Source: the human T2T-CHM13v2.0 reference genome, Homo sapiens. Taken from it: DNA of 64,000 nt. The notes beneath the pieces are model-generated. The model saw only the letters and a list, made by a program, of their open reading frames with translations. It was not told the DNA's origin and ran no database searches. A program made the position numbers and the translations under genes. Where the stretch lies: the NCBI RefSeq assembly GCF_009914755.1, contig NC_060947.1; one strand, given 5' to 3'. Within the stretch, counting starts at the first letter, position 1. Each line of letters begins with the position of its first letter. Positions 5,611-31,154 of the stretch are shown in pieces.

Positions 5611-6529
5611 TATTATTATTACCGTTCTTTATCACTAAATAAATACTATTTTATATGTAAGTGAAATATAATACCAACTCCAATTATAACATATATAATA
5701 TGTATACATATATAGATAGAAAGCTAGACTACTATACAGGCTACTCTAATAGCATAGGAGATGGTCACCTAAGCCAAATAATGTCACTGTCATGGTTGGG
5801 GGTAGGGGGAGGCTTACTGAAAGAAGGTGATAGCCGCACTGTATTTTGATTGATGACTAAGAATTAGGTGAAGAAGAGAGTTGTAGGGGTTACTCCAAGA
5901 AAATACATATTATTCTATATTCTATATGTTATTGTAGAGAACAGTAACATAAAGAAATTATTGATTGGGAGCTGCAGTATGGTAGGGGATGTTAGGCTGG
6001 AGAGTGGGAGCAGTTGAAGTTGGAGATAGAGACAGGGACTAGAGACTTTGAAGGGCTTTGCCTGCCATGCTAACTACATTAGACTAAAGTCTCAGGGACT
6101 AGTTTTCTTGAAAACGATGAACTAAAAGATTCACACTGTGATGTAAATAAATAAAAACAGGTATTTGCATTTTAATAAAGCACAGAATGTTCCACAGGTC
6201 CAATTTCAAGCATTGGTAATTAGGGAAGAGGAATCTCCCTCATGTCTCTCAGTTCACACATTTATGAGAGGATGACACACCTGGTTGTCTGCATACCAGA
6301 CTGTTCTACTCAGTAGGGAACTTGCCACCCTTCTGGAGGTGGGGGAGGATTCTATTTTCCAGAAACCCCCTAGTCCATCACTGGTAATAAGAAACTAGGG
6401 ATAGAGGGTGGCTCCCATGGCAACCAGTGCCCACAGCCCTGTAAACACTTATAGCTGAGAGGGACTGGGAGGCAAACAGGTGTTCTAACCAGCTGGGTCT
6501 GCTGGTTTCTTTCCATTGGTACCACATGG

Positions 6530-14915: not shown

Positions 14916-17636
14916 ATATATAAAATATATCAAAGAGGTGCTCTGTTTAAATCTGATAGGGGTAGGGTAGGCATGAACTTTGCCATCTCTGGAACCTGAA
15001 TAATTGAGAGTTAACTACATGAACACATTTGCACATGAACGCTGGCCAAACTCTAGAAGCACCACTGAGTGAGCACTACAGGACATGGGGGAGACAACTC
15101 CCATCTTCCAAACTTTGGAGGATTATTATGTATAAGAAGTAGATTTCATCGGGGTTGCAACTTGAATCAGAACTAGAGCCAGTGAGTATGAAGGGAGTAC
15201 ACACAGGTAGATACGGAATCAATAGAATGATTTGAGATTCTCAGGTTGTCTGATGAAGTGGTAAGCTCTCTAGCTTTGGAAGTGTACAAGAAGAAGCTGT
15301 ATATCTCTCTGTTAGTCTTGCTATAAAAAATTTTCTGAAGTGGCCGGAGGATTGATTGGTTCATACCACCTTGACAATCTTTGTAGCTCTGAGATGCTAC
15401 AGCCAAAAGTCAAAAGTGTGTGAGCCCAAGGATGAGGGGTAATATATGTTTGTTTTTTACAACTTGAGAGAGGTCTTTGGCCTTTCTTCCTGGAATCCCA
15501 GAGACAAATTTTCCTTGCAAAAGTTCATTCCATCCTAATTGCGATTCCATTTCCCAGAAATTACCTGATGCTGGGCTGATGATTAGTGGCCAGCCAGGGG
15601 TAAAGGGACTGATTCCCATGGCAACCAGGTTGAAAAAACATACCATGTGGAGAATTGTCAGCAACGAGCTACGTTTGCATTATAAATAGATATTTAATTC
15701 ATTGAGATAGTTTGTGACAACTTCTGCATTATAAATAGGTACTTAATTCATATAGATAGCTCTGACAGCAAGTAGGAAAGTTAAACCCCAAAGCCACTCT
15801 TTGTCTTTAAGTATTTCAGAGTTAATTGACAACCATTTTTTTCCTTCTAAAACATGTAGAACTTGGCTAAGTGGGAGAACGGTATATGTGAGTGTTTTTA
15901 GAAAGCCAACTAATAGTCCAACGTCACAACATTTCTCACTATTTGTTTCTCACTGAAAGATTTTTCAGAATTTTCCCTGAGTGCAAGAGTATCTCTCTTT
16001 GAATCCTTTTGACACAGGAGACCCCAGGTTCAATGTCTGGATTTCACAAGAGTTATTTCCTGTCATGTTTGTCTCACTGTCACCCTGCTTTTCTAACTCA
16101 GAGGCATCTCAAAATTTCAGTACTTGGCCCTCTGCTCTTATCTTCCCATTTCTCTTTCCCTTGGTGAAAGCTAAAGCAATCACGTTATCACTTGCTAACT
16201 TACACAACTTTACTAGCCTTGACAATATACACTTTGGAACACCCAAAGGTTGGAAAACAGAATCAGATCTGATCAAAGGACGTTTATCCTAAGACTGAGG
16301 ACCAACTCTTTCCGGTGTTCAAAATATACTGCTTGATTGAGGGTTAGGGATGGAGAGTTTGAGGGCAAAAAGTGGTGTTCAGCAGCAAGCAGCAATTAAG
16401 TTTGGCTAAACTCAAATGTAAAAGTAATTTTGAAATGCAATTTTTACAAATACTATAGTAAATTAGTATAAGGGACTAATAGAATCTCATCAAATGGAAA
16501 TCAGAGTGGGACTTTGTACTTCTACATTCCAAAGAGCTTAATACAAATTAGTCTATAATACTCAGAGTGTTTCATTCTGTAAGGATTAAGGTAAATGGGA
16601 TGCTTTTTTTTTTTCATTAACTTGCTGTGTAAATATGCTTCCTAATGCAACCATATAGAGGAGTTGCTTTCTAAACTTTATTATAACCAGGGTTAAATAA
16701 CTCACCAGGTACTGTACCCTTGTACATTGCTCTATTGAACAGTGTTAGCTTAGAATTAAACACTGCTGGGAGGCAAGTTTAACTTCTTTAGGGTCAGATT
16801 TGAAGGGGTCATGACCCCCTCTCAGACCTGTAGGTCACTTTTTCTGAGGTCTTTAACAAGCTTTGAGGAACTAGGTAAGCCACCCACCCCATTCCAAACG
16901 GCCTAATGGCCTAATGTGTACTGAATTCCCACTCATGGGGCAAGTGGCCTTCTAATCCAGGGGGAAAGATCAGTGGCTGAGAATGGGAGCTAGCCCCCCG
17001 CCCCACCATTTCCCCATTTGGAATCCTGGGAGGCGACACTGGCAGGTCCCCTGTTCCAAACCATCCACCTCATCTGCTTACTGGCTTCTTGAGATCCCAC
17101 CATTACACGCACATTCCTTTGGGAAAATGGAACTCTCTTTAGAGAGGGACAAAGTATCAGATTTGATTAATTGTTCTTACTTAAGAGTGAATTCATTTAC
17201 ACCCTGTGATTGCTAGGTAAGGGTCACAAAGCGCGCTTTTCCAGTTTCAAAGTGCTGCTGAGGGCCAATCCCACTGTTTGAAAGTGGATGTACTATGGAC
17301 CCAAACGTAACACAATGAAATGCATGTAATGTCTGTGTTTTCCCTCCTCAGGCTCAACTTGGAGAGAGTGTTGCCATTCATTCATTCATCTATCCCATGG
17401 AAGGGCAAAAGAATACTCTGGTCAGTGACTATGTGTCAAACCAAATTGGGAAGTAGCTATTTTGGAGCCCCCTCCCCACGCCCATCCTTGAACAACTTTC
17501 TCTTTTCTCGTACCCCTGCACTCTCTTATTCTGCCATCGAGATCAGCTCCAATACATCATTTCTAAATTGTTAGTGGAAAACAGACCAATAGAAGACCAC
17601 AGCCATAGTTTTTGAAGTTAAATAGTGAATACTCTT

Positions 17637-18034: not shown

Positions 18035-21000
18035 CTATGTAAAGAAAAAGACATGAGTAAGGGAGGACCCAGAAACTGAAAACAGATTGCACGGTGGGGC
18101 TCAGATACTAGGGGAGCATTTGTATGATTGTTTTTCTAGCACCACCTGGTTCACAGAAGGGGGCCATAATGAGGCATTTATTTACCTGGTTCGCAGTCGA
18201 GGCCACTTCTTCCACTCTATGGCTAGCACTACCCCCAAGGCTACAACAACCACCACGATTAGGCTACTTCGGACAATGTTCCCTACAGTGCACTCCTGAG
18301 CAACAGGCCCTGTGGTGATGAAAGAGGAGAAACCGAGGCCATGGAGATTAGCGTGTGTATGTTCCCCTTGATCTGGTATTGCCCCACACTCTGGCCTTCT
18401 TTAGGGTTCACGTGGGAGCCATCTGTTCAGACTACAGAGGGGGTGGGCAGTGGCAGAGTTTATGCTGAAGCAGAAGCAGCCCTCCTTTCCTTGGGGAAAA
18501 GAGGCCTGAAAAGAAACCCACTCACTATCTTCAAATATATTTAAGGTCCCACCTCCTCATCATCCTTAGGAGAAAGATGACACACTTCAGGTCCCTGGCT
18601 CCAAAGCTCCTCCATTCTCCTGATTTGGGATGTCTCCATGGGGACTGTCCCTGGGATCCCAGGTGTGTCACACCAGGACCATGGAGAGATTATTCTCTTA
18701 CCTGCTGCCCCCACCAGCTCCAGGGGATCACTAGGCTCTGACCAGATATCAGGGTAGGCCTGGAGGCGGTAGCTGCAGCTGTAGTTTCCAATGCCTTTTC
18801 CTTCTACGTTGTTGATGACAAAGTCTCCATCCTCTGAAAACTGCTGAGGTGCTTCTTCTCCATCATGTTCTAGGACAAATTCAACACCTGGCAGGGGTCC
18901 TCGGCACTGAAGGGTGATGTCCTTCCCTAACTTGAACATGGTGCTGGGCCAGGCTGACAGAGAGGGTTTAGGGGGCTTATCTGCAACCAACAAGGACACA
19001 GAGTTAAAAGAAATGATCCTGAACTTAGCCTTTTACCCCCTTATTGCTTACTGCTAAAAACTACAAAATCGTGACTTGTACTGAAGTCTCCAGGACCTTA
19101 CCAGTCACCCAGATCTCCAGGGAGTCACTGTGATTTGAAGCTGCAAAGGGAGTAGAGTCCAAATAATAAACACAGCTATAGATCCCAGAGTCTTCACCTC
19201 TCACTGCTGGCATCCAGAAGTCAGCCCTGTACCCACTTGGCCTCTGTTGCTCTAAAGGCTCCTGAGCCCCCTCCTTCAACAGGACAAATGTTGAGTCTGG
19301 CAGTTCCCCTTGACACTGAAGAGTCATATTTTCGCCAGGGGCCACCATGGGACCAGGCTGGGCTAATAGGCTGGGTTTGGGGAGTAAGCCTGGAAGAAAT
19401 GAACTCCTGGTCAAAGAGAAGAGGTCACTTTCCAGTGCATCACCCCTGGGGTCTCTGCTCAATAAAGAGGAAAGGCAATTGGTTGCCTCTCCTCGAGCTC
19501 TCTGAAAACTATCTCCCATGAACTAGTCTATTCCCTCCTTTCTACACTTCCATGCCCACTCGACAGCCTCTTCCCCTTACCTGTGACTAGGAGTTCCAGG
19601 GTGTTGCTAGGTTGTATCTTGATAGAACTGGTCCAGTCAGGGTGGTAGCAGCAGCTGTAACGCCCCATGCTAGTACCAGATATATTGGTGATGGGGAATG
19701 CCCCGTCATTACTGGTGGATCCCCAGAGCTGCATTGAAGTGGCTTCTCCTTCTTTGTGCAGAATGTATCCTACTCCATGGACCGGCCCTCGGCACCAGAG
19801 AGTAACATTCTGCCCCATGGGAACCACAGAACTGGGCTCAGCAAACAACCATGGCTTAGGGAATGTGTCTAGAAAGAGACCAAGGTTGTAAAGTGGTGAC
19901 TATAGAAACTTATGAGTTCCTGCTTAAATTAACACTCTATCTTTCTCCTCTTGGGCACGGTAGTTCCCCTCCGTGGCCTAGCCTAGCCTTCCAGGAGGAA
20001 TTACTCTCCCTAACCCCTTCTCCAATGATCTCCATCCCAGTCCCATGTCCGGTCGGTCCTTACCAGTCACCCAGATCATAAGGGGCATACTGAGATATGA
20101 CCCCCTGTTTGACATGGTTGTCTCATAGTAGATACAGCTATAGTTCCCAGAGTCCTCTGCTCCAACAGTGTGGAGAAGGAAGTCAGCTGAGTTCCCTGAG
20201 ACACTCCGAAACTGTAAGGGAACATGGGCTCCCTCCTGCAAGAGGGCGAACCTCATGCCCTGGAAAGTCCCTTGGCAGCGCAGGATCACACTCTTCCCAG
20301 GAAACACCACAGGACCTGGCTGTGCCAGGAGAGTGGGTTTGGGGTAGAATTCTGAAATTAAAGAGACCACAGCATGAGATAAACCCAGCCCTCACATCCT
20401 GCAAATAGCCTTTTAAAGTGTTATTGTAAGACACAATATATGTTTGTTGTTAAAAATTAGAAAATATAGAAAAAAAAACTAATGAAGGAAACACAATTCT
20501 ACCACTCAAAGATAAATATTTTTAATATTTAATTGCCATTTATTCTTTCCATATATTCCCATGTCCATGTAGCTATAACTGTTTACATAATTGGGACTCC
20601 ACTTATGCACAGTTGTGTAGTTGTGTAGTATGCAGCTGACATTTCAAGGTCTTCTCCCTTTCTCTGAGAGCCATCCAGCCCACCGGTCTCTGACAGCCCA
20701 GCTAGAGAAAAAGTGGACATTGAGCCTAAAGCTCAATGCCAAGCCATAAAAATGTGCAGAAATAGGGCAAGTTGAACCGAGCTCTTGGGATTAGACACCC
20801 CCATCTACCTCATTTATTTCCCCAGAAGTGAATTGCTTGCCTCCCCACTGCCTTTGTTTCTTGTTCCTGTAATAATAACATGAGCAGCTGTGCATCATGG
20901 ACTGGTCACTATGGGCCAGCCGCTGTCCTAAGCACGTTCTCAGTGTGTTTTAGAAGAAACATTTCTTCCTCTCCCACTGACAGCCTTCCACCCACCATCC

Positions 21001-24000
21001 CAGGGTTGGCACCACCTCTACCTGGAGTCCCCCCTCCTAACCTGTCACCACGAGCTCCACAGGGTCGCTGGGCTCAGACCAGATAGAAAAGTCATAATAT
21101 CGGCAGCTGTAATTCCCTCCATCACCAATGCCCACCGAAATGATTAGAAAGTGAGCTGCACTGGCCCCCGGACTTGCCCAGGACCTGTCACTGGATGCTA
21201 TTTCACTTCCATCTTTGTAAAGAATAAAGCTCATATGCTGGTGGGGGGTGGAGCAATTGAAAGTCACTCGGGCACCAGGGGTGACCACAGGGCTGGCCCA
21301 TGTCTTGAAGAAGGGCTTAGGGTACATTTCTAGAAGGCAAAAAACAAAAACAAAAACAAAAAACAAAATACAACACAAAACCAAATTAAGAACAAGAAAG
21401 AGAGAAAGCAAATATAGCAAATATTGGTTCTCGGAGGCTTCTTTGCTTTTAAGTAAGTGCATTTAAAAAGTAAGGTAAATCCACTTTGCAGATGGACTTC
21501 TCACACAGGGACCCTTCAACCCCACCCCTCACTACCTCCAGATGAGTCCTCAGTGTGATCAGGGCAGGCAATGGAGGCTAGTAAAAAGGTAGAATTTTTC
21601 TTGGGGTTCTGCTGATTCTCTGAGCCTCAGTTTGCCCATTTGGACAAGGGGAAAATGGTACCTGCTTCACCCACCTTGAAGAGTTGCTCTATGGTGAAGT
21701 GAGATAATTGATGTGAAAATAATTAGAAAAATTAAATCACCCTCCACGAACCAAAGCTATTAATAACGATTATGGCTATTAATATCGTGCAGCCAGAGGC
21801 CCTGGCACTCCCAGCGCCACGCCTGCCTGGCTCTAAGATTGGACACAGGCTCTCAGGACCAGCAGCAAAGTTTGCTGCAGGGAGAGGAGTGTCTGACCCA
21901 GGGCTTTGCCTTTCCCTCCACCCTGCCCCCTTTCCTCCCACACCCTTTTCAGCTCTACCTTTTATGACAAGCTCCAGCGGCTCACTGGGCTCAGACCACT
22001 TGAAGGGGCGTTTTTCAGTGTGAGTGCGGCAGCTGTAATTGCCTTCGTCTTTATCCTCCATTCTCTGGATTGTAAAGAAGGCTTCTCTTCCAACAGCACC
22101 AAGTTGCTGGACAGGTTCTTGCTCTCCCTCCTTATACAGAGCAAACCCCATGCCTGCCAGCCATCCTTTGCACCGGAGTTGTAGTTCCTGGCCCCGGATT
22201 GTGGGGGAAGCAGAAATGACAGGTTTGGGGAGGATGTCTGGAAAACAGAATGGGGTGAAAAAGGAGTCAGAAGTTTGCAGTTGCCCAGATGGGATACTCA
22301 GGGTCACTTTGTCAGCAAATAAAGACATTCATTCTGGGCTGGCCCTAGGCTCTTCCAGTCAGTCTCCTCACACTCTCTTTCCCATTCCGCCCCTCCCCCT
22401 ACCCCATAACCCCCTACCATTTCAGTGCCCCTCCTCTCCTACATGCAGCACGAGCCCCTTGGGCTCCAGGGTCCCTGTGAGTTCATTCCCTCACTCCCAG
22501 GAGCAGTGTTGGAGTCCCAGGGGCACTGGGGATAACTCCCGGAGACCCTCTACATTTTCTTACCTGTCCCCACCAGCTCAAGTGCCTCACTGGGCTCCGA
22601 TACAGCCATCTCCTCCCATGAATGGCAGTGGTAGCTCCCGGTGTGGCTCTGGGTCAGGGCGCCAAGGGGGAAGGCAGCCCGGACCTGCTCTGAGGCCGGG
22701 CGAGTGGCGATCCACCCGGTCCCATCCTTCAGCAACACAAACTCCTTAGTTGAGCCAGAAGGGCTTCTGCACCAGAGGGTTAAGTTCTTCCACGGGGCCA
22801 GAGGAAAGTTGGTCTCTGCCCACAGCTCAGGCTTAGGGGTTGGCATGACTATTTCTAGAAACAGCAGAATTAATGAAGCCATCCTCCCGCCTCCCTTCCC
22901 CTCCCTCCTCCTTGCCCTTGAACCCTCTACCCAGATCACACTGCCCACCTCCCCTTGCAACCCAAATCCAAACCCTTTCCTTCTTTCCTTCCTTCCTCAG
23001 GTGCTGGGGAAAGGGGAAGCTGGTGTCTTATAGCTGAGCCTCAGAAAAGTGCAGAAGCTTGGAGGAAATTTTGCAGGCAGAAAGGCAAAGTTGGAGGCTG
23101 AATTTTGCCAGCAGCTTTAGCAAGTGCCCCTTCCTGGCTGCCCTTCCCTCCCAACCAGCCACTCCCTGGCCAATGACACTGACGCTCTGTAGTTATTTCG
23201 GATCTCCAGGGAGGAATGTCCCAGTCTGGAGCAGGAAAAACTCACCAGTCTCTTCTATCAATACCCCATTGCACAGTCCTGCAAAAGAAATTGCTGCCAG
23301 GACTCGGCCCCCTCCCCCACCGGGACTTCACCCCGGCCTTCTGCCCGGGGCCCCTTCCCCCACTTGTACTCACCACAGCAGAGAAGGGCCGTGACTATGA
23401 AGAGCATGGTGACCCCTTGAGCTGTTCCCAGCAACCAGGCTTCTCTAGTGAGACCAGAAAAGAGATGAGAGGAGTTGCTGGGATGAGGGGGAGGGTGGAG
23501 GAAAGGGGGCGGCAATTTATGTCATTGGCTTACTCGCTACCCAATGGGGACTGGATATGGCCAAGATAATCGGATATAATCTTATTTGACATCAATGACT
23601 TTTCTTTTTGAGGGCCTTACCACCTACAAACCTCTTGCTCTTTCATGACCCACGTGTCCCCCCCGCCCCCTCCCCACTCCGCAGCCTATATCATATGTCA
23701 GCTCCCCATGGCCCCTGATTAGGTTGTTGCTGGAATTGAGATGTCAGATGGGAAAATGCTTTTATATTATTTGGAGCTCTCAGAACCCCTGGAGCTCATT
23801 GTGATCGGCAGCTCTGGGTGGTGTGTGTGGGGGTGGAGGGAGAAACTGTGAGTATTTCTCAGTCATCAAGTTTAAGTTCGGAAGCAGTTGTTGTGGCAGT
23901 ATTGGTCCTCAGACCCACCTGCCTCACCTGCCTTTGTTATGGAAGGGTTGCCTAGGCAGCTGTGATGAATTACTAGAAGATTGGCAGTGCCGAGCCAAGC

Positions 24001-27000
24001 TTTTCAGAGAGTAGAAACTCTCCCCTCACCCAGATTATAACTAGAAATGTGCAGCAGCTTTGGGTCATGAGTCTTGTAGTATTAGATGATATTAACCCAA
24101 AATCCATTGGACAATTTTTACTTAGAAAACACTGACCATCCTTCCTGGTGAGGAAAACATGATTTTCAAGCTGCTTTCTCTGAAATCTGGTTCCTGATCT
24201 TATTCTTTGATGCAGTGTTGCTGGGCTGGGGTGGGGCACATAAAGCTACATTTTTTTTTTTTTCTAACCACTGGCTTGGAGATTACTCTAATGAGTACGG
24301 GACCCAGGTCAGGTTCCGGAAAGAAGTAGAACTTGACCCCTGCTGAAACTTTTTGAAAACTCAAAGGGTGGTGGTTTTTGCAGAAGGCTTAGGTGGCTCC
24401 CTTCTGATTGCCCAAGTATTCTGTCCCTCAGATTCCAGTGGAAAACACAGACACATGTAATCATAATCATAATCCATTGTGCATTGAATACTTCCAGACA
24501 CACTGACCACAGTTGCAGGGCGGGGGGTACAGCCAGAAGCAGGGAGTAGGGGGAAGTAGACAAGGTATTCAGGAGCTAACATCCCTACTGGGTCAGAAGT
24601 GGTCATTTCTCTCCTTGTTCCCAGTAGAGTAGCCTGAGCACAAGCCATGGGGATGAGAGAGGCAGATGGCCCAGAGCACACCACAGAATCAAAGGAAATG
24701 GCAGGAGAATCTGTTTGGCCTGTGAGTTTGTGAGTCAGAGGAAACAGTCTGATTCTGTTGCCCCGTCCAATATCACATCAGATGGCCATCCAGGTCAAGT
24801 CTATATTCCCAGAATGCTCTGCACAGGTGGTTGGAGGCCACAGTGTCAGAGACTGGTTACTAAGGCAACTAGGATGCGTCACAAGGCTTAATAGCTCCTG
24901 AGAGCTAGGGATAAGGGTGAAAAGTTGGGATAGGAGTTGGATAACAGTCTGGGAGACAGGACAGCATGGCTTCTTACAAGAGGAAAAATCCAGAACAAGT
25001 TAATGAGGGAGACATCAATCATCTCTGAGGGCAGGATGGTTTGTGGGCGAGATTTGGGCACCCTCCGGGGGGGATGTCAGTGAATGCAGTTCTGATTACT
25101 CCTCTTGCCTCTGAGAACTATGCATTTCTCCACCCGCTGGCTTGAGTGCTGACCCCTCTGTGAGGCGAAAGAGACAGGTGGGGTGAGAAAGTCTTGTTCC
25201 CTAAGCCCAGAAGATAGGGGTTCTATAGGGTTTGCCTCTGTGGCTTGTCTCAACTAGGGCATGACTCATTCTTCAGACTCTGTTAGGTTGGGGAACAGGG
25301 GGCTGGGACAAGACAGTTACCTGATTCTGAGTCTCCGACACTTCCACCTTATCCACAGCACTACCAACAGCAAGGCAACAAGCTGCATGATTAGAGACAA
25401 CCTGATAGCTTCATTCAGAACGTAATTCCAGGTGAGATAGCCTGTGGCCAGAGAAGACCAGAATCAGAGGCCTTGATGGGGACAGGGGCAGGTGAATACA
25501 TTCATGGGGTGAGGACAATCTGGTTACTGACAGTGCTTATATTGAGAAGGTGAGGCAGAAGTGGCCTTCTTTTTCATGGAGAATGGGAGCCTTGAAATTA
25601 TCCTGCTAACTGCCTTTGAGGAATTGTGAGACCACCCCAGGGGAAGGGTGCTGAAACCCAAGGGCTCTGATTTTCAGGCCTCTGACTCCCTTTCCCATAT
25701 CTTTCTGGGCACTGATCTGGGATCCCTGGGGTATGGAGGGGCATTCCTCTGAAGAGTTATCCTCTCACCTGCTGGCCCCATCAGCTTCAGGGGCTCACTG
25801 CGATGTGACCAGATGTTAGGATGTGTCTCTACGCGATAGCTGCAACTGTAGGTCCCTGTGCCTTTCCCGTCAACATTACTGATGATGAAGTCTCCGTTTA
25901 CTGAGAATTTTTGGAATGTTTCTCTTTCTTCCCATTCCAGAGAAAATTCCAGTACTGGATGAGATACTCGGCACTGAAGGGTGATGGCCTTTCCTAGCTT
26001 GAACACAGTGCTTGGCCAAGCTGACAGGGAGGGTTTGGGGGGCTTATCTGAAACCAATCCAGAGACCAGAGTGAGAAGTGACCTCAAACCCAGTACCCTC
26101 TCCCCCAGAAAATGTTTCTGAGCTCCCCATTTGATCTTCTCTTCCTTTCCACTTCCACTTGGCCAGTGGCTTCAAGATTTGACTGTGCATTAGAATTCCT
26201 TTGCCCACCCCTTGGTGATCTAAAGATTCCTGGTTCCTTACCTTCAATCAGGAAGACCTCATACCTGTAAGCTTCCTCTGGCCTAAAGAAAAATAATTTT
26301 CCCAGGGGTTACAATGGGGCTGTGCCATACTGAGAGGTGGAGCTTGAGGAACAATCCTGGGAGACAAGGTCCCTAAAGTTTTGGAAGAAAGTTCTACACC
26401 ACCTTCCTAGTGCGTGTGTGTGTGTATGTGTGTGTGTGTTTTGCTCATAGCTCTCAGAGGATATGAGGCTACTAGCTCCTTCTTACAACACCACAATGAT
26501 GATAAAAACAAACAGGTTGATAATAAAAACAGTTGTTAACACTTGCCTACAACCATAAGCTCCACAGTGTTGTGTGATGGCATCCTAATGGAGGTCTTCC
26601 AGGTGAGAAGATAGTGGCAGCTATAGATGCCAGTATCACTGTAGGTTACATTGTTGAGGAAGAATGATGTGTTGTCATCGATGCTGGTGGCATCCAAAAA
26701 TTGAAGTGGTTTGTCTTCTCCTTTCTTATAGAGTGCAAGACCCACTCCATCCACTGGTCCTCGACACCGTAGGCTCACATTCTGACCCATTTGGACCACA
26801 GCACTGGGCCGAGCAAGTAGCCAGGTCTTGGGGAAAGTGTCTAGGATGAGACCCAGAATAAAAAGCACTAGTGATTTCACTTCCTGCTCCCACTCCTTAA
26901 GATTCTTTTCCTTCTCTTCCTCCAAACCACCCTTGGAAAAACCTGCCTACACCCAGTTTTACAAATTCTGCTCCCTTCTCTACTGTTAACCCTGGCCACA

Positions 27001-30000
27001 GGATTAGGTTCTCCAGGGAGCACAGAGGGAGATTTATATCCTTAGCCGTTAACCTAAGTTTCATGGCATACCCGTCTCTTACCAGTTACCCAGATTTTCA
27101 GGACATCACTAAGGAGTGAACCTCTATATGATGCGTCATAGTAAAAACAGAGGTAATGTCCAGTATCTTGGATCTTCAAAGACTGGAAGAAGAAATTTGC
27201 CTCATTTTTTATTGTCTTCTTGTGGTAAAAGGACTTCTCCAAGTCTTCAACCCTCATTAGAGCAAAGGTCATTCCATAGATTGGCCCTTGGCACCTGAGA
27301 TTCAGGCTTTCTCCAGGTGCCATGATGGGCCCAGGATGGGCTGTCAAAGTTGGTTTGGGGTAGAGTCCTACAAACGGAAGAGACCCTAAAGTTAGAGGCA
27401 AGATGATTCTTTCCTGTTGTCTTCTGTTTTCTCTTTCTTAATTTCTTTGAACAAGAAGTGGTAGCTGAAGTTTACCTTCTCTTCCCTATCCCTTCCTTGG
27501 ATCTCTGCCTCTGTAACATAATCAAGGGTAGATTCACTTATGCCCCTGTTCTCTCTCAAGAATCTGCCAGCTTCACTGAGCTCTAACCATGTGTAGGGGT
27601 GTATCTCAGTGGAAGATCTACATCTATAATTCCCTGTATCTTTAGGCCCCTGAAATGCCAAATGTAGTTCTTTCAACCACCAGAAAAACCAAACCTCTGA
27701 AAATAACATTGTTTTCATCTTTGCAGAGCATGAATGCCACTGAAATATTAAGGAGAGCTTTTGAATACATTAAGCTCATTTAAGACCCTACTTCTACAAC
27801 AAGACTGAAAGAAGCCAATAAAGAGGGTTTGGCCAGTAAGTCTGCGACCCAAATAAATCTTTGTTATGGGGCCACACATTCCTTTCCATGAATTGTTTCT
27901 CCAAGGAGATTTTACATGAAAGTGAGGGCAAACCTCACCTCCTACCACTCCTTCCTACCCCCACCCCAATGCCAGGCACACTTATCTATTCATTAAGGAA
28001 GGATCAGCTCTGTCATATGCTCACTGAGCATTTAGTATGCATCAAGCGTCATGTAGGTCTAGGTGTGTATGAGTAAAGAAGACACAGTCTCCGCTAGCAA
28101 AAAGCTCATGAACTGGTTGGTGGGGGATATTGGTGAACAGGTAACTACGGAAGTGTATTTTAGTGGAATCTATGCTGAAAGGGCATGAGTACAACAAACA
28201 TTCATACACTCAGTTCAAACAGGCAGTTTTTGTTCTTTGATCCTCAATAAAAAGCTATACTAACAAAATTAATATCTACCATTTATTGAGAACTTATATG
28301 CCAGGCACTGTACATATATATTTAGGCAAATCCTCACAACAACCCTGTGAGGTAGGCATTATTATTAAACCAATTTTGCAGATCAGGAAGCTGAGGCACA
28401 GAGAGAAGCATTACACAGTAGATCAGATAGATACTGTTATCCCATTTTTAGAGTAGAGGAAGCCAAAGCACAGAAAAGTGAAGTGACTTGCTCAAGACCA
28501 CACAGGGAGGCAGTGTCAGAAATAGAACTAGAAACCAGTATTACTGCTTCTAAGTCTAGGGTACTTTCTGTAGCACCACAGCTTTCCCCAAGCCTATTTA
28601 GCTGGATAGAGAGACTAAAGCAAATGTGGCCAATTCCATCTAGAAACCTCCAGGCCATGGGGTGGGGGAGTTCGGGCTGGGACATGTCTGGCATTTTACA
28701 TTTTGGGGAAATTTCTTCTATATTTAGAGATTGGTGCTGCCTTACTAGCTCTACTGATAGGGAACCAAGGTGATTTATAAAGCCATTTCTAAAATATGAG
28801 CTATCACATTCTTTGTCATTTGTTTTTTTTTGTTTTTACTCACCAACACTAGCAATCCATTCTGTTTTCCACACATAAAAATAACAATTACAAATAAAAT
28901 ACATTTGCAAATTTAAAACTCCATTTATAAGATTGCAGTGGCAGTGCCTGGCACATATTAGGTGCTCAATAAATACTGGTTGAATTAATGAATGAATGCA
29001 TGATATTCAACAAGTTGAGAACAACAAAGCTGTGATGAGCTGAAGCTGCTGGCCAGTTGGCTGGGCTCCTTTACTAGCCAAATGATTGGCTCCCATACAT
29101 CTGCCTTGCAGCACATGCCATTCTAATTTATATCTCAGTAAAACTTCAAACGACTGTAGCTCATGGGGCCTTGCAGGGCCTAGAAACTGGCTGAGGAAAG
29201 TAAAATCAGAAACCCTAGCTCAGCCAGCCATGATACCTGGGACAACAATTGCCAGATGCCAGCAGCCATAGCCACACCCACCTGCTACAACCAGCTTCAG
29301 GGGGTTGCTGGGCTCTGACCACAGGGTGGGGAGCATCTGGATATGAGTGCGGCAGATGTAAACCCCTTCATCCTCAGGTGTCAGGTTGTCAATGGAGAAT
29401 ATGGCCATTGTCCCAGTTGGGACTTGGTAATCCACAGGCTCTGCATATCCCTCTTTAAACAGCATGAATACCAAATCCTGCAGCCAGCCATGGCAGAGGA
29501 TGTTAACATTACACCCAGGAAGAGCGGGGGTCTCAGCCTGAATCCAGAAGATGGGCTTGGGCAGTTGGCCTGGAAGGATAGAATGAACTGGAATTAGGTA
29601 AAGCAAGGATAGTACTGTCTAGGGAGCAGCAGAGGAGAGCTCTACTTTAATTGAGGTTTCCCTGTATGATCCTTGTTTGCCACCCCTCCTTCTCCTATCT
29701 CTGCTCCAGAGTCTGCATCCCCCCTCTGCATTGCCCAATACAAAGTAGGCCCTTATTTACTAACTGTGGGATGCGTGCTTGCATGCATTTGTGAAACAAA
29801 CTCTCCCCTGGAAGGCAAGTTTGAATCTCAGGAGCTGGAGTTGATTCTTGAGTATCACTGTCATCTTACCTGGTGCCTCCAACTCTAGAACTTTACTGGG
29901 CTTTGACCAGCCTGTCTCCTTCCAGTAGCAGCACCGGTAAAGACCTGCATTGGACTCAGTAAGGGCACCTATAAGGAATGAAACTTGGAAGGTCTTGTGG

Positions 30001-30777
30001 GAAGGGCGGATCCAGGTCATCTGTGTCTTATCCTTCAGCAGCAGGAACTTGCTTGATATCCGAGAGGGGCTTCGGCACCAAAGCGTGATGTTCTCCCAAG
30101 GGGCCTGGGGGTAGTTGGACTCTATCCACAACTCCGGTTGAGGGTCCATCACTGTTATTCCCAAAGATCAAAAAGATATGAGCAGTCCAACCCTCTCCCT
30201 CCCATAACATGTCCCACAATGTCCCTTAAAATTAGCCCGGACCCAGATCCCTCATTTTGTCTTCCCTTGGGGACAGGAGTGTGCTCCTGTGGGGCATCGT
30301 ATAAGAACCCCAAGATATTTTGTCAAGGGGTCCAAATGAATTGGAGAATAAAGTCTGATGGTCTCTTTTCCATCTGAGATAAAGCTTTTTCACCATGCCA
30401 TAGGAAACCAAGTCCTCTGATTCCCAATCAGCCCAATCTATCTCTGGAATCTCAAGGCATTATGTCCAAGGTCATGGAGACACGCCAGCATCTTGGATCC
30501 TTTAGGAAGGAGGTGCCTGAGAGGGCAGGACTCACTTACCTATCGATGTCATACCCAGACTCATCCCTGAAAAGAGAGATTATGGTAAAGGAGAGCTCCC
30601 TTGTTGTCTCCATCCTGTGCTCAAACCTCAATACTTTCCTCTCCCACCCCTAATGAGTGGGTACCTATGACAGGGTCACTTGCCCCTCACCCCTTCCTTG
30701 TACTCACGAATGCAAAAGAGCAAAACAGTGAATGTCTTCAGCATGGTGGCCCCCTCCCCTGGTCTGTCCAGGGTCAT
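17899..30777 (-). CDS. IGSF1: IGSF1 (immunoglobulin superfamily member 1) spliced CDS, 19 coding exons, 1336 aa
   Basis: Exon lengths 70+27+282+288+285+294+279+121+71+33+291+279+288+288+288+288+279+124+136 = 4011 nt. Translation MTLDRPGEGATMLKTFTVLLFCIRMSLG...SQRISVELPVPI* is the protein I recognise as IGSF1. All junctions are GT-AG except one GC-AG. Confidence 0.98.
18186..18309 (-). CDS. IGSF1: IGSF1 exon 19, C-terminal transmembrane segment
   Basis: GPVAQECTVGNIVRSSLIVVVVVALGVVLAIEWKKWPRLRTR; 124 nt; phase 1-2. Confidence 0.96.
18702..18980 (-). CDS. IGSF1: IGSF1 exon 18, Ig12
   Basis: DKPPKPSL...GIGNYSC...LELVGAA; 279 nt. Confidence 0.97.
19102..19389 (-). CDS. IGSF1: IGSF1 exon 17, Ig11
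   Basis: GLLPKPSL...DSGIYSC...LEIWVT; 288 nt. Confidence 0.97.
19581..19868 (-). CDS. IGSF1: IGSF1 exon 16, Ig10
   Basis: DTFPKPWL...SMGRYSC...LELLVT; 288 nt. Confidence 0.97.
20064..20351 (-). CDS. IGSF1: IGSF1 exon 15, Ig9
   Basis: EFYPKPTL...DSGNYSC...MIWVT; 288 nt. Confidence 0.97.
21042..21329 (-). CDS. IGSF1: IGSF1 exon 14, Ig8
   Basis: EMYPKPFF...DGGNYSC...VELVVT; 288 nt. Confidence 0.97.
21959..22237 (-). CDS. IGSF1: IGSF1 exon 13, Ig7
   Basis: DILPKPVI...DEGNYSC...LELVIK; 279 nt. Confidence 0.97.
22564..22854 (-). CDS. IGSF1: IGSF1 exon 12, Ig6
   Basis: EIVMPTPKPELW...HTGSYHC...LELVGT; 291 nt. Confidence 0.97.
23246..23278 (-). CDS. IGSF1: IGSF1 exon 11, 33-nt micro-exon (GLCNGVLIEET)
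   Basis: ttcttttgcag|GA...ACTG|gtgagt; phase 1-1. Confidence 0.94.
23374..23444 (-). CDS. IGSF1: IGSF1 exon 10, internal signal peptide
   Basis: EAWLLGTAQGVTMLFIVTALLCC; 71 nt; donor G|GTGAGT. Confidence 0.95.
25321..25441 (-). CDS. IGSF1: IGSF1 exon 9, first transmembrane segment
   Basis: GYLTWNYVLNEAIRLSLIMQLVALLLVVLWIRWKCRRLRIR; 121 nt; phase 1-2. Confidence 0.95.
25769..26047 (-). CDS. IGSF1: IGSF1 exon 8, Ig5
   Basis: DKPPKPSL...GTGTYSC...LMGPA; 279 nt. Confidence 0.97.
26155..26356 (-). pseudogene. Fossil Ig-domain pseudoexon in IGSF1 intron 7 (paralog of exon 17/Ig11), 3' part decayed
   Basis: Phase-1 acceptor then (G)LFLKLHLSVWHSPIVTPGKIIFL*, 1-nt deletion, QRKLTGMRSS*LKVRNQESLDHQ. 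Confidence 0.8.
26547..26840 (-). CDS. IGSF1: IGSF1 exon 7, Ig4 (GC donor)
   Basis: DTFPKTWL...DTGIYSC...ELMVV; 294 nt; donor AG|GCAAGT. Confidence 0.95.
27083..27367 (-). CDS. IGSF1: IGSF1 exon 6, Ig3
   Basis: GLYPKPTL...DTGHYLC...KIWVT; 285 nt. Confidence 0.97.
27545..27841 (-). pseudogene. Fossil Ig-domain pseudoexon in IGSF1 intron 5 (paralog of exon 14/Ig8)
   Basis: Phase-1 acceptor then (D)LLAKPSLLASFSLVVEVGS*MSLMY...FMLCKDE..., frameshift, PKDTGNYRC...TWLELSE. Confidence 0.88.
28270..28580 (-). mobile_element. MIR elements in IGSF1 intron 5
   Basis: accatttattgag...cctcacaacaaccctgtgaggtagg...gaagctgaggcacagaga, with a second core at ~28435-28570. Confidence 0.88.
29282..29569 (-). 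CDS. IGSF1: IGSF1 exon 5, Ig2
   Basis: GQLPKPIFW...DEGVYIC...LKLVVA; 288 nt; donor G|GTGGGT. Confidence 0.97.
29870..30151 (-). CDS. IGSF1: IGSF1 exon 4, Ig1
   Basis: VMDPQPELW...C...AGLYRCC...LELEAP; AG/GT bounded; 282 nt. Confidence 0.97.
30540..30566 (-). CDS. IGSF1: IGSF1 exon 3, 27-nt micro-exon ending the signal peptide (RMSLGMTSI)
   Basis: ctcttttcag|GG...ATAG|gtaagt; phase 1-1. Confidence 0.95.
30708..30777 (-). CDS. IGSF1: IGSF1 exon 2 coding part: start codon and signal peptide (MTLDRPGEGATMLKTFTVLLFCI)
   Basis: ATG at 30777 and a second in-frame GCCACCATG at 30744. Donor C|GTGAGT. Probable acceptor ttctgcttttag with exon start near 30844. Confidence 0.95.
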
Positions 30778-31154
30778 GGGGCCTCTGGTGCTGGCTGTGT
30801 GCTCTGAGTCTTGAAGAATTTTTCTCCTCAGCAGGTGGTGGGATCTAAAAGCAGAATTGTTTTTACTCAGAGGACTTGTCCTGCTCCTTAAAGTTTAGTT
30901 TAGATGGCTAAATTGCACTTGACAACCCTACATTGTACTTCCTCACAGGCATGCAGGGTATTACAAGGTCACCTGCTGCTTCCTCTCCTTGCTCCTTTCC
31001 CTCACTTCCCTATCCTGCTCAAGGTCTTTGTTGGTATCAAAGATGTCAGATTTGTTGAAATATGGATTTGTCTCTGGGATCTCAGAAGCCCAGAATAGCC
31101 TGCAGAAGCTCCACAGGATGGGGGAGATGGGAGGTGCAGAGTCACCTTTTCAGA

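What the first reader, a model, noticed from the sequence alone, without database searches (positions are those of the whole stretch)
26155..26356. Second dead Ig exon in intron 7 at the slot corresponding to Ig11
Minus strand: ccttgtctcccag|GA then (G)LFLKLHLSVWHSPIVTPGKIIFL*, against Ig11 GLLPKPSLLAQPGPMVAPGENMTLQC. TAG (26283-26285) falls at the Gln25 position, and the Cys codon is reduced to GC by an apparent 1-nt deletion. The shifted frame reads QRKLTGMRSS*LKVRNQESLDHQ, against QGELPDSTFVLLKEGAQEPLEQQ. A weak VKS/EATGQ trace (cf. VRGEDSGI) follows before similarity is lost.
Basis: seen in the sequence. Interest (0 to 1): 0.75.

Follow-up and report, generated by a model that had tools for sequence, protein, structure and literature searches.

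The report
Decayed Ig exon in IGSF1 intron 7
Intron 7 of the human IGSF1 gene holds the broken front half of an extra immunoglobulin-domain exon, a fossil showing that the gene's first half once carried a counterpart of the eleventh Ig domain of its second half.

Summary
On the minus strand, right after an intact acceptor (…tgtctcccag|G, 26357|26356), about 159 nt (26356-26198) align to IGSF1 exon 17 (Ig11) from its first base. The alignment has one 1-nt gap in the first-Cys codon, an in-frame TAG at Gln25 and a later TGA. Exon 17 used as an nhmmer query over the whole 64-kb window hits it at E=5e-8. 0 of 300 dinucleotide shuffles reach its score (z 7-13). A profile of the 12 live Ig exons finds only 14 places in the window: the 12 exons, this relic and a second relic in intron 5.

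Exon 17 is the nearest exon by nucleotide similarity (85/145 identical; 28.5 bits against at most 11.9 for any other). A tree on 146 columns does not resolve the sister exon. A frameshift-aware protein alignment does not single out Ig11.

None of 102 mammalian IGSF1 proteins has a domain in this slot.

Best reading: a non-functional pseudoexon left by the duplication that built IGSF1. I found no report of it in print. Interest is moderate.

The parts
26048..26546 (-). IGSF1 intron 7 (499 nt), between exon 7 (Ig4) and exon 8 (Ig5). It is a GC-AG intron.
   Evidence: Hub annotation. Exon translations reproduced. Splice-site listing (exon 7 donor reads TAG|gcaagt).
26357..26376 (-). Acceptor of the relic exon, still intact: ttagggaccttgtctcc CAG|G.
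   Evidence: There are 11 of 17 pyrimidines at -20..-4. The 19 real IGSF1 acceptors range from 8 to 15, and exon 17's own acceptor also has 11.
26198..26356 (-). Alignable part of the relic Ig exon, homologous to exon 17 nt 1-164 (Ig11 strands A to about C').
   Evidence: nhmmer E=5.2e-8, with the alignment shown. 85/145 nt are identical in codon register. 0 of 300 shuffles reach its score. The 12-exon profile gives E=3.9e-7.
26283..26285 (-). In-frame TAG at the position of Gln25 (CAG in exon 17).
26281..26282 (-). Remnant 'GC' of the first (B-strand) Cys codon. One nucleotide is missing, which shifts the frame.
   Evidence: nhmmer alignment and codon-register alignment.
26248..26250 (-). TGA stop in the shifted frame, at the position of a Leu of ...FVLLKEG....
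26236..26244 (-). Donor-like site AAG|GTAAGG (last exon nt 26242). With the intact acceptor it would define a 115-nt pseudoexon.
   Evidence: It matches the MAG|GTRAGT consensus at 8 of 9 positions. The 19 real IGSF1 donors match at 6-8 of 9. This is a crude consensus count only.
26259..26267 (-). Second donor-like site CAG|GTATGA (last exon nt 26265). It would define a 92-nt pseudoexon.
   Evidence: 7 of 9 consensus matches.
26048..26197 (-). Rest of intron 7, with no detectable remnant of the exon's 3' half (second Cys, donor) or of intron 17.
   Evidence: z -0.1 to 0.6 against the exon 17 3' half. (no nhmmer hit at E<=100). The 150 nt left compare with the 124+121 nt expected, so at least about 95 nt are missing if the ancestral lengths were similar.
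26410..26447 (.). (CA)n-like microsatellite in the upstream part of intron 7. It is not part of the relic.
   Evidence: In one search the only non-self genome matches of intron 7 are to this run.

Best explanation
This is a non-functional relic (pseudoexon) of an Ig-domain exon. IGSF1 was built by duplication of a unit with seven Ig exons. The upstream copy (the N-terminal half, NTD) received a counterpart of exon 17 (Ig11) between its Ig4 and Ig5 exons.

Every Ig exon of the gene is phase 1-1 and a multiple of 3 nt long, so skipping one keeps the reading frame. The exon could therefore be dropped from the mRNA without destroying the protein. It then decayed neutrally:
- the 3' half, with the second Cys and the donor, was lost or scrambled;
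- the first-Cys codon lost a base;
- Gln25 became TAG;
- a TGA arose downstream.

Shown here: homology, register, the lesions, and absence from annotated proteins. Inferred: the order of events, and that the exon died early, before crown eutherians diverged. It has no role in the protein today.
For: Homology:
- Exon 17 as an nhmmer query hits 26353-26198 at E=5.2e-8 in the whole window.
- z is 7-13, with 0 of 300 shuffles reaching the score.
- The profile of 12 Ig exons finds just 14 significant places in 64 kb on both strands: 12 live exons, a relic in intron 5 (E=7.6e-13) and this one (E=3.9e-7). The next hit has E=0.53.

Register:
- The alignment starts at exon 17 nt 1, directly after CAG|G.
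- It is ungapped except for a 1-nt and a 4-nt gap.

Nearest exon:
- 85/145 nt (58.6%) are identical to exon 17. Exon 15 gives 49.7%, exon 6 gives 47.6%, and the others give 37-46%.
- The reciprocal nhmmer search gives 28.5 bits to exon 17 and at most 11.9 bits to any other place in the 30 loci fetched around the best Ig11-like places of the genome.
- Third-codon-position identity is 51%, within the range of accepted NTD/CTD pairs (31-63%).

Relaxed constraint: identity by codon position is flat at 62/62/51%. Exons 7 and 16, a live pair, give 71/83/48%.

Not a repeat: in the whole human genome, intron 7 matches only itself and (CA)n runs.

Not expressed as protein:
- None of 102 mammalian IGSF1 proteins has more than 12 Ig domains.
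- After an Ig4-type domain comes Ig5-type in 95, the protein end in 5 and Ig6-type in 2. None has an Ig3/9/11-type domain there.
- The hub's RefSeq table lists no exon in intron 7.

Literature:
- Guselnikov & Taranin 2019 (PMC6557307; passages read) report the same domain pairing.
Against: - The ML tree on 146 columns does not resolve the relic's sister. Holding it with Ig11 gives the best likelihood, but AU does not reject Ig9 (p 0.41), Ig3 (p 0.49) or Ig8 (p 0.25).
- Quartet-informative sites number only 6, against 3 and 3 for the alternatives.
- The frameshift-aware protein alignment gives exon 17 only z 1.8-2.8 (16 of 200 and 3 of 200 shuffles reach it). Exon 15 reaches z 4.2-6.2 and exon 14 z 4.5-4.7. 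At protein level it looks like a generic Ig-exon start and keeps a 'GMR' that Ig9 has and Ig11 lacks.
- The flanking intron sequence shows no significant similarity to intron 16 (z 0.6-0.9). Similarity to the exon 17 3' half plus intron 17 is weak (z 3.2 in one scoring, 1.3 in the other).
- No orthologous DNA and no RNA data could be examined.
- The gene models behind the 102 proteins are largely homology-guided predictions.
Confidence: 0.88

Rival explanations
1. It is a relic Ig exon, but not the specific counterpart of Ig11. It could be an old local copy of the Ig3/Ig9-type exon, or a member of the Ig3/9/11 subtype whose apparent closeness to exon 17 only reflects exon 17's short branch.
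For: - AU tests do not reject grouping with Ig9, Ig3 or Ig8.
- Exon 17 has the shortest terminal branch of the subtype: 0.14, against 0.25 for exon 15 and 0.50 for exon 6.
- The protein-level alignment favours Ig9 and Ig8.
- 'GMR' matches Ig9.
Against: - It sits exactly between the Ig4 and Ig5 exons, which is the slot of Ig11 in the other half.
- Nucleotide identity is 58.6% to exon 17, against 49.7% to exon 15 and 47.6% to exon 6.
- nhmmer gives 28.5 bits to exon 17 and 10.8 bits to exon 15. Exon 6 as a query gives no hit at E<=10.
- The relic matches only exon 17 at 14 sites, only exon 15 at 9 and only exon 6 at 5.
Confidence: 0.1
2. The relic is still used as a cryptic or poison exon. The intact acceptor and a strong donor-like site let a 115-nt (or 92-nt) piece be spliced in at some level. 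That introduces the TAG and sends the mRNA to nonsense-mediated decay, or the site is activated by deep-intronic variants.
For: - The acceptor is within the range of real IGSF1 acceptors.
- AAG|GTAAGG matches the consensus at 8 of 9 positions, as well as the best real donors of the gene.
- Exon 7 has a weak GC donor.
- Inclusion would give a stop after 24 codons.
Against: - None of the 12 RefSeq transcripts in the hub's table has an exon in intron 7.
- None of the 102 proteins shows an insert after Ig4 that resembles it.
- No paper linking IGSF1 to a pseudoexon, cryptic exon or intron 7 event was found. Every hit I opened or could judge was unrelated.
- Consensus counts are a crude measure, and no RNA data could be consulted.
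Confidence: 0.08
3. It is a chance resemblance of intronic sequence to an Ig exon.
For: - Protein-level similarity to Ig11 alone is weak (z 1.8-2.8).
- The flanks and the 3' half show nothing significant.
Against: - E=5.2e-8 in a window-wide search, and 0 of 300 shuffles reach the score.
- The alignment begins at base 1 of the exon, immediately after an AG.
- The other 16 introns scanned give at most 17, against 29 here.
Confidence: 0.01
4. It is a later insertion or gene-conversion patch copied from exon 17 into intron 7, unrelated to the original duplication.
For: Only that exon 17 is the nearest sequence.
Against: - A later copy should be more similar to its source than the accepted ancient pairs are. 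At 58.6% it is not. Over the same columns exons 4/12 give 67%, exons 7/16 give 68% and exons 8/18 give 74%.
- It is collinear, on the same strand, and starts at a splice acceptor in the correct phase.
Confidence: 0.03

Closest known systems
IGSF1 exon 17 (Ig-like domain 11), window 19102-19389
   Same: Homologous over nt 1-164. Same strand, same phase-1 start after CAG|G, and the same position relative to the neighbouring exon types (after an Ig4/Ig10-type exon and before an Ig5/Ig12-type exon).
   Different: The relic has two stops and a frameshift. It has no first-Cys codon, no detectable 3' half or second Cys, and no donor at the homologous place. It is not in any annotated transcript.
Pseudoexon 3 of two-domain (lineage III) KIR genes, in the same leukocyte-receptor-cluster family
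   Same: An Ig-domain exon that stays in the gene but is not incorporated into mRNA. It is taken as evidence that the receptor descended from a form with one more Ig domain (passage of PMC3504360 read, which cites Vilches et al. 2000). Exon loss without loss of frame applies there too.
   Different: KIR pseudoexon 3 is a complete, fairly young exon, and some chimpanzee KIR still use the functional form. The IGSF1 relic is half gone, heavily mutated and apparently dead in all sampled eutherians.
Relic Ig exon in IGSF1 intron 5 (about 27570-27832, minus strand)
   Same: It is the second Ig-exon fossil of the same gene half. It was found by the same profile (E=7.6e-13) and sits in the other 'missing' slot, between Ig2 and Ig3, which corresponds to Ig8.
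   Different: The intron 5 relic covers almost the full exon (profile positions 10-268) and keeps the F-strand motif ...DTGNYRC.... Its best nucleotide match is exon 13 (Ig7), not exon 14.
Model of IGSF1 origin by duplication of the C-terminal half (Smith, Harrison & Bernard 2022, PMC9162367; Guselnikov & Taranin 2019, PMC6557307)
   Same: The relic is what that model predicts if loop 11 was copied and then lost. The loop pairing is 1/6, 2/7, 3/9+11, 4/10 and 5/12.
   Different: Both papers argue from protein trees. In what I read and searched within them (the terms remnant, pseudo, degenerate and vestig had no hits in PMC9162367), neither looks for exon remnants in IGSF1 introns. Smith et al. 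leave open whether loop 9/11 duplicated during or before the event, and say loop 11 was lost 'during duplication'.

Membership tests
Ig-domain exon of IGSF1 (live, coding) | Nucleotide homology to the 12 Ig exons | tested here: met
   Profile nhmmer E=3.9e-7. Exon 17 as query gives E=5.2e-8.
Ig-domain exon of IGSF1 (live, coding) | Starts after an AG acceptor in phase 1 | tested here: met
   cccag|GA, with the alignment starting at exon 17 nt 1.
Ig-domain exon of IGSF1 (live, coding) | Open reading frame of about 93-98 codons with length a multiple of 3 | tested here: not met
   TAG at 26283-26285, a 1-nt deletion, and TGA at 26248-26250.
Ig-domain exon of IGSF1 (live, coding) | The two conserved Cys codons (B strand, and F strand in ...G.Y.C...) | tested here: not met
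   The first Cys codon is reduced to GC. No remnant of the F-strand region was found.
Ig-domain exon of IGSF1 (live, coding) | GT donor at the homologous 3' end | tested here: not met
   No alignable 3' end. The only donor-like sites lie inside the relic.
Pseudoexon / exon relic of an internal duplication (as KIR pseudoexon 3) | Homologous to a functional exon of a paralogous unit and lying collinear in the corresponding intron | tested here: met
   It lies between the Ig4 and Ig5 exons, same strand, and is nearest to exon 17.
Pseudoexon / exon relic of an internal duplication (as KIR pseudoexon 3) | Not incorporated into mature mRNA or protein | tested here: inconclusive
   It is absent from the RefSeq transcripts in the hub's table and from 102 mammalian IGSF1 proteins. 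No RNA-seq data could be examined.
Specific counterpart of Ig11 (exon 17) | Sister of exon 17 in a tree of the Ig exons | tested here: inconclusive
   Holding the relic with Ig11 gives the best likelihood, but the alternatives are not rejected (AU p 0.25-0.49).
Specific counterpart of Ig11 (exon 17) | Highest similarity to exon 17 among all Ig exons of the gene and of the genome's related genes | tested here: met
   58.6% against at most 49.7%. 28.5 bits against at most 11.9 bits over 30 loci.
Interspersed repeat | Many copies elsewhere in the genome | tested here: not met
   A whole-genome DNA search with intron 7 found only itself and (CA)n matches to query positions 99-163.
Poison / cryptic exon in use | Usable acceptor and donor and a premature stop on inclusion | tested here: met
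   Consensus counts, which are crude. The stop comes after 24 codons.
Poison / cryptic exon in use | Splice junction reads or transcripts that include it | not testable with these tools
   No RNA data are available here. Literature searches found none.

The most novel reading that the evidence does not exclude
The fossil is not inert. Its preserved acceptor, together with the strong donor-like AAG|GTAAGG 115 nt downstream, makes it a latent poison exon behind the weak GC donor of exon 7. It may be spliced in at a low or regulated level, lowering IGSF1 output through nonsense-mediated decay. Or it may be a ready-made target for deep-intronic variants that cause X-linked IGSF1 deficiency in patients with no coding mutation.
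Probability: 0.08. Interest if true: 0.6.

Novelty: new member of a known kind. Interest (0 to 1): 0.42.

Why it matters
Published models of how IGSF1 arose rest on protein trees. They had to assume that the N-terminal half 'lost' the loops matching Ig8 and Ig11, and they left open whether Ig9 and Ig11 duplicated before or during the event (PMC9162367).

A physical remnant of an Ig11-like exon in the correct intron shows three things:
- The upstream copy started with this exon.
- The Ig9/Ig11 pair therefore predates the duplication.
- The loss was exon decay in place, not incomplete copying.

With the intron 5 relic, the gene reads as 7+7 Ig exons. This is a modest but concrete addition for those studying IGSF1 and the leukocyte-receptor family. 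It also flags a deep-intronic site that could matter when interpreting non-coding variants in IGSF1 deficiency.

Tried and rejected
- **Frameshift-aware protein-to-DNA alignment with 200 shuffles.** It detects Ig-exon likeness but ranks Ig9 and Ig8 above Ig11, so it does not help to assign the slot. One search used a cheap frameshift penalty and gave noisy scores.
- **Homology of the flanks.** The upstream 190 nt against intron 16 and eight other introns gave nothing significant. The equal lengths (190 and 191 nt) are therefore only a coincidence I can note.
- **Tail 26048-26211 against the exon 17 3' half plus intron 17.** This gave z 3.2 in one scoring, 1.3 in the other, and no nhmmer hit. 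I considered, and dropped, an alignment of ...SNAQSNLEATGQ to the exon end ...SNHSDSLEIWVT with a mutated donor at 26156|26155.
- **Last 40 nt of intron 7.** The best match is the intron before exon 18, but only by one point (12 against 11).
- **A 10-nt exact match (AACTTTAGGG) with the intron before exon 6.** It is not significant family-wise: 447 of 1000 shuffles do as well.
- **ML tree and AU tests.** These were unresolved.
- **Genome-wide six-frame protein search with Ig11.** It listed 112 places and none in intron 7, so it is too insensitive for a frameshifted half exon.
- **Relics of the non-Ig exons.** There are only weak reciprocal hits, exon 9 with exon 19 and exon 2 with exon 10 (E 0.1-0.3), and no relic of exon 20 in intron 9.
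- **Orthologous intron DNA of other mammals.** No tool here holds it.
- **Literature.** PMC8560734 matched 'IGSF1' only through IGSF10. PMC9826517's 'intron 7' refers to USP9Y. The search listed 15 of 1,251 papers, and none of those 15 holds IGSF1.
Full report
**What is there**

IGSF1 lies on the minus strand. I rebuilt its coding sequence from the hub's coordinates, and it translates to a 1336-residue protein. Exons 4-8 encode Ig1-5 and exons 12-18 encode Ig6-12. Every Ig exon is phase 1-1 and 279-294 nt long, a multiple of 3.

Intron 7 (26048-26546, 499 nt) separates the Ig4 and Ig5 exons. On the minus strand it reads ...ccttgtctcccag|GATTGTTCCTCAAG.... In the frame handed on by exon 7 this gives (G)LFLKLHLSVWHSPIVTPGKIIFL, then TAG at 26283-26285. 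The next frame continues ...QRKLTGMRSS, then TGA at 26248-26250, then LKVRNQESLDHQ.

**Is it more than chance?**

I aligned each of the 12 Ig exons locally to intron 7 and to dinucleotide-preserving shuffles of it.

| Query exon | Scoring | Result |
|---|---|---|
| 17 | permissive (two schemes) | z 7.0 and 13.3; 0 of 300 shuffles reach it |
| 17 | strict | z 3.7; 2 of 200 shuffles reach it |
| 15 | permissive | z about 3 |
| 14 | permissive | z 4.4 in one scoring, 1.0 in the other |

The alignment begins at base 1 of exon 17, which corresponds to 26356, the first base after the AG.

- nhmmer with exon 17 alone over the whole 64-kb window, both strands, reports 26353-26198 at E=5.2e-8. That is better than its hits to five of the live Ig exons. 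Exon 15 gives E=0.008, exon 14 gives E=1.7, and exon 6 gives nothing at E<=10.
- The nhmmer alignment is ungapped apart from a 1-nt gap inside the first-Cys codon and a 4-nt gap at 26209|26208.
- In a scan of 18 introns against 12 exons, only intron 5 (score 30) and intron 7 (score 29) stand out. Every other intron scores at most 17.
- A profile built from the 12 live exons finds 14 significant places in the window: the 12 exons (E<=7e-41), 27832-27570 in intron 5 (E=7.6e-13) and 26353-26209 in intron 7 (E=3.9e-7). The next hit has E=0.53.
- In the whole human genome, intron 7 matches only itself and (CA)n runs, so it is not an interspersed repeat.

**Which exon does it correspond to?**

In codon register over the first 146 nt, the relic is identical to exon 17 at 85/145 positions (58.6%). 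Exon 15 gives 72/145 (49.7%), exon 6 gives 69/145 (47.6%), and the others give 37-46%. Over the same columns the accepted pairs give:

| Pair | Identity |
|---|---|
| exons 4/12 | 67% |
| exons 7/16 | 68% |
| exons 8/18 | 74% |
| exons 5/13 | 51% |
| exons 6/15 | 57% |
| exons 15/17 | 62% |

Used as a query against 30 loci fetched around the best Ig11-like places of the genome (IGSF1 itself and chromosome 19 receptor genes), the relic scores 28.5 bits on exon 17 and at most 11.9 bits elsewhere.

Identity by codon position is flat (62/62/51%). Live pairs show the usual excess at positions 1 and 2, for example 71/83/48% for exons 7/16. The 51% at third positions lies within the range of the accepted pairs (31-63%).

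Three results count against a firm assignment:
- The ML tree on 146 columns leaves the relic unresolved. Holding it with Ig11 gives the best likelihood, but AU tests do not reject Ig9, Ig3 or Ig8 (p 0.41, 0.49, 0.25).
- Quartet-informative sites number only 6, against 3 and 3.
- My frameshift-aware protein alignment ranks Ig9 (z 4.2-6.2) and Ig8 (z 4.5-4.7) above Ig11 (z 1.8-2.8). SPIVTPGK resembles Ig8 and Ig9, and GMR is shared with Ig9.

The claim 'counterpart of Ig11' therefore rests on nucleotide similarity plus position. The relic lies after the exon that pairs with Ig10 and before the exon that pairs with Ig12.

**What is missing**

Nothing of the exon's 3' half is detectable.
- The exon 17 3' half against 26048-26211 gives z -0.1 to 0.6.
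- Adding intron 17 gives z 3.2 in one scoring and 1.3 in the other.
- nhmmer finds nothing at E<=100.

So is my own alternative, an exon-end remnant with a mutated donor at 26156|26155.

Only 150 nt remain where about 245 nt (124 nt of exon plus 121 nt of intron 17) would be expected. If the ancestral lengths were alike, roughly 95 nt or more have been deleted. That is an inference.

The upstream 190 nt show no similarity to intron 16 (z 0.6-0.9). A shared 10-mer with the intron before exon 6 is not significant (447 of 1000 shuffles).

**Other species**

No mammalian DNA other than human is available here. Protein data are.
- A search with the Ig4 exon returned 102 IGSF1 proteins from primates, rodents, lagomorphs, carnivores, ungulates, whales, bats, eulipotyphlans and elephant.
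- None is longer than 1360 residues or has more than 12 Ig domains.
- After an Ig4-type domain comes Ig5-type in 95, the protein end in 5 and Ig6-type in 2.
- The three inserts of 10 residues or more after Ig4 are two models that skip Ig5 and one short intron read-through.

Many of these are predicted models. This is evidence that the exon is not used. It does not prove that the exon is dead everywhere.

**Explanation**

Two papers infer from protein trees that IGSF1 arose in eutherians by duplication or fusion of two similar units. Both give the loop pairing 1/6, 2/7, 3/9+11, 4/10 and 5/12.
- Guselnikov & Taranin 2019 (PMC6557307; passages read).
- Smith, Harrison & Bernard 2022 (PMC9162367; outline, Results and Discussion passages read).

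Smith et al. state that loop 8 and loop 11 were lost from the N-terminal half. They leave open whether loops 9 and 11 duplicated during or before the event.

The relic fits the version in which a seven-exon unit was copied whole and the extra exon then died in place. Phase 1-1 exons can be skipped without frameshift, so loss of the donor or 3' half would remove the domain cleanly. Stops and a frameshift then accumulated.

**Comparison with known cases**

The closest described case is pseudoexon 3 of two-domain KIR genes, from the same receptor family. It is an untranslated Ig exon taken as proof of a three-domain ancestor (passage of PMC3504360). The IGSF1 relic is older and half gone.

**Novelty**

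I found no mention of an IGSF1 pseudoexon.
- Searches for IGSF1 with pseudoexon (3 papers) and pseudo-exon or related words (2 papers) gave nothing relevant.
- IGSF1 with 'intron 7' gave 2 papers and IGSF1 with 'cryptic' gave 16.
- Of these, PMC8560734 and PMC9826517, which I opened, proved unrelated. The other papers I judged from search listings only.
- Within PMC9162367 the words remnant, pseudo, degenerate and vestig do not occur.
- The 1998 gene-structure papers are outside the searchable library.

**Possible residual activity**

The acceptor (11 of 17 pyrimidines, CAG|G) is within the range of the gene's real acceptors. Two donor-like sites would define pseudoexons of 115 nt (AAG|GTAAGG, 8 of 9 consensus matches) and 92 nt (CAG|GTATGA, 7 of 9). 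Both would carry the TAG. Exon 7 itself uses a GC donor. Whether this is ever spliced cannot be tested here. I give it about 8%.

**Verdict**

This is a real, statistically solid exon fossil. It is most likely the dead counterpart of Ig11, of ordinary kind but apparently unreported, and of moderate interest.

Noticed in passing
window 27570-27832 (minus), possibly 27549-27841, in IGSF1 intron 5: A second, nearly full-length relic Ig exon sits between the Ig2 and Ig3 exons, the slot of Ig8. The 12-exon profile gives E=7.6e-13 over profile positions 10-268. It has several stops and frame changes but keeps ...KDTGNYRCRSSTEIHPYTW... and starts after ...gggtcgcag|AC. Its best single-exon match is exon 13 (Ig7, E=5e-7), not exon 14 (E=0.11).
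   Followed up: partly
window 26545-26546 (minus), donor of exon 7: Intron 7 is a GC-AG intron. Exon 7 ends ...GTTGTAG|gcaagt, and it is the only one of the 19 donors of the transcript that is not GT.
   Followed up: no
window 26410-26447: A (CA)n-like microsatellite lies in the upstream part of intron 7. It is the only part of the intron with matches elsewhere in the genome.
   Followed up: no
window 25321-25441 vs 18186-18309; 30708-30844 vs 23374-23444: There are weak reciprocal nucleotide hits between exon 9 and exon 19 (transmembrane exons, E about 0.2) and between exon 2 and exon 10 (signal-peptide exons, E 0.1-0.3). This fits a duplication that covered these exons too, but the hits are not significant alone. 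No relic of exon 20 was seen in intron 9.
   Followed up: partly
proteins P0001-P0102: Only 29 of 102 database IGSF1 proteins show all 12 Ig domains. 53 show 11, and the missing domain is most often one from the C-terminal half: Ig10 in 22, Ig8 in 14 and Ig11 in 9. One is a human 1240-residue entry (P0039) that lacks Ig10. These look like predicted exon-skipping isoforms, which the phase 1-1 exon design permits.
   Followed up: no
window 6309-6428 (minus): The exon 20 3'-UTR region (query positions 200-316) has a weak nhmmer match here (E=0.0009), and weaker ones at 15526-15632 and 22984-23044. This is probably a shared low-complexity or repeat segment.
   Followed up: no
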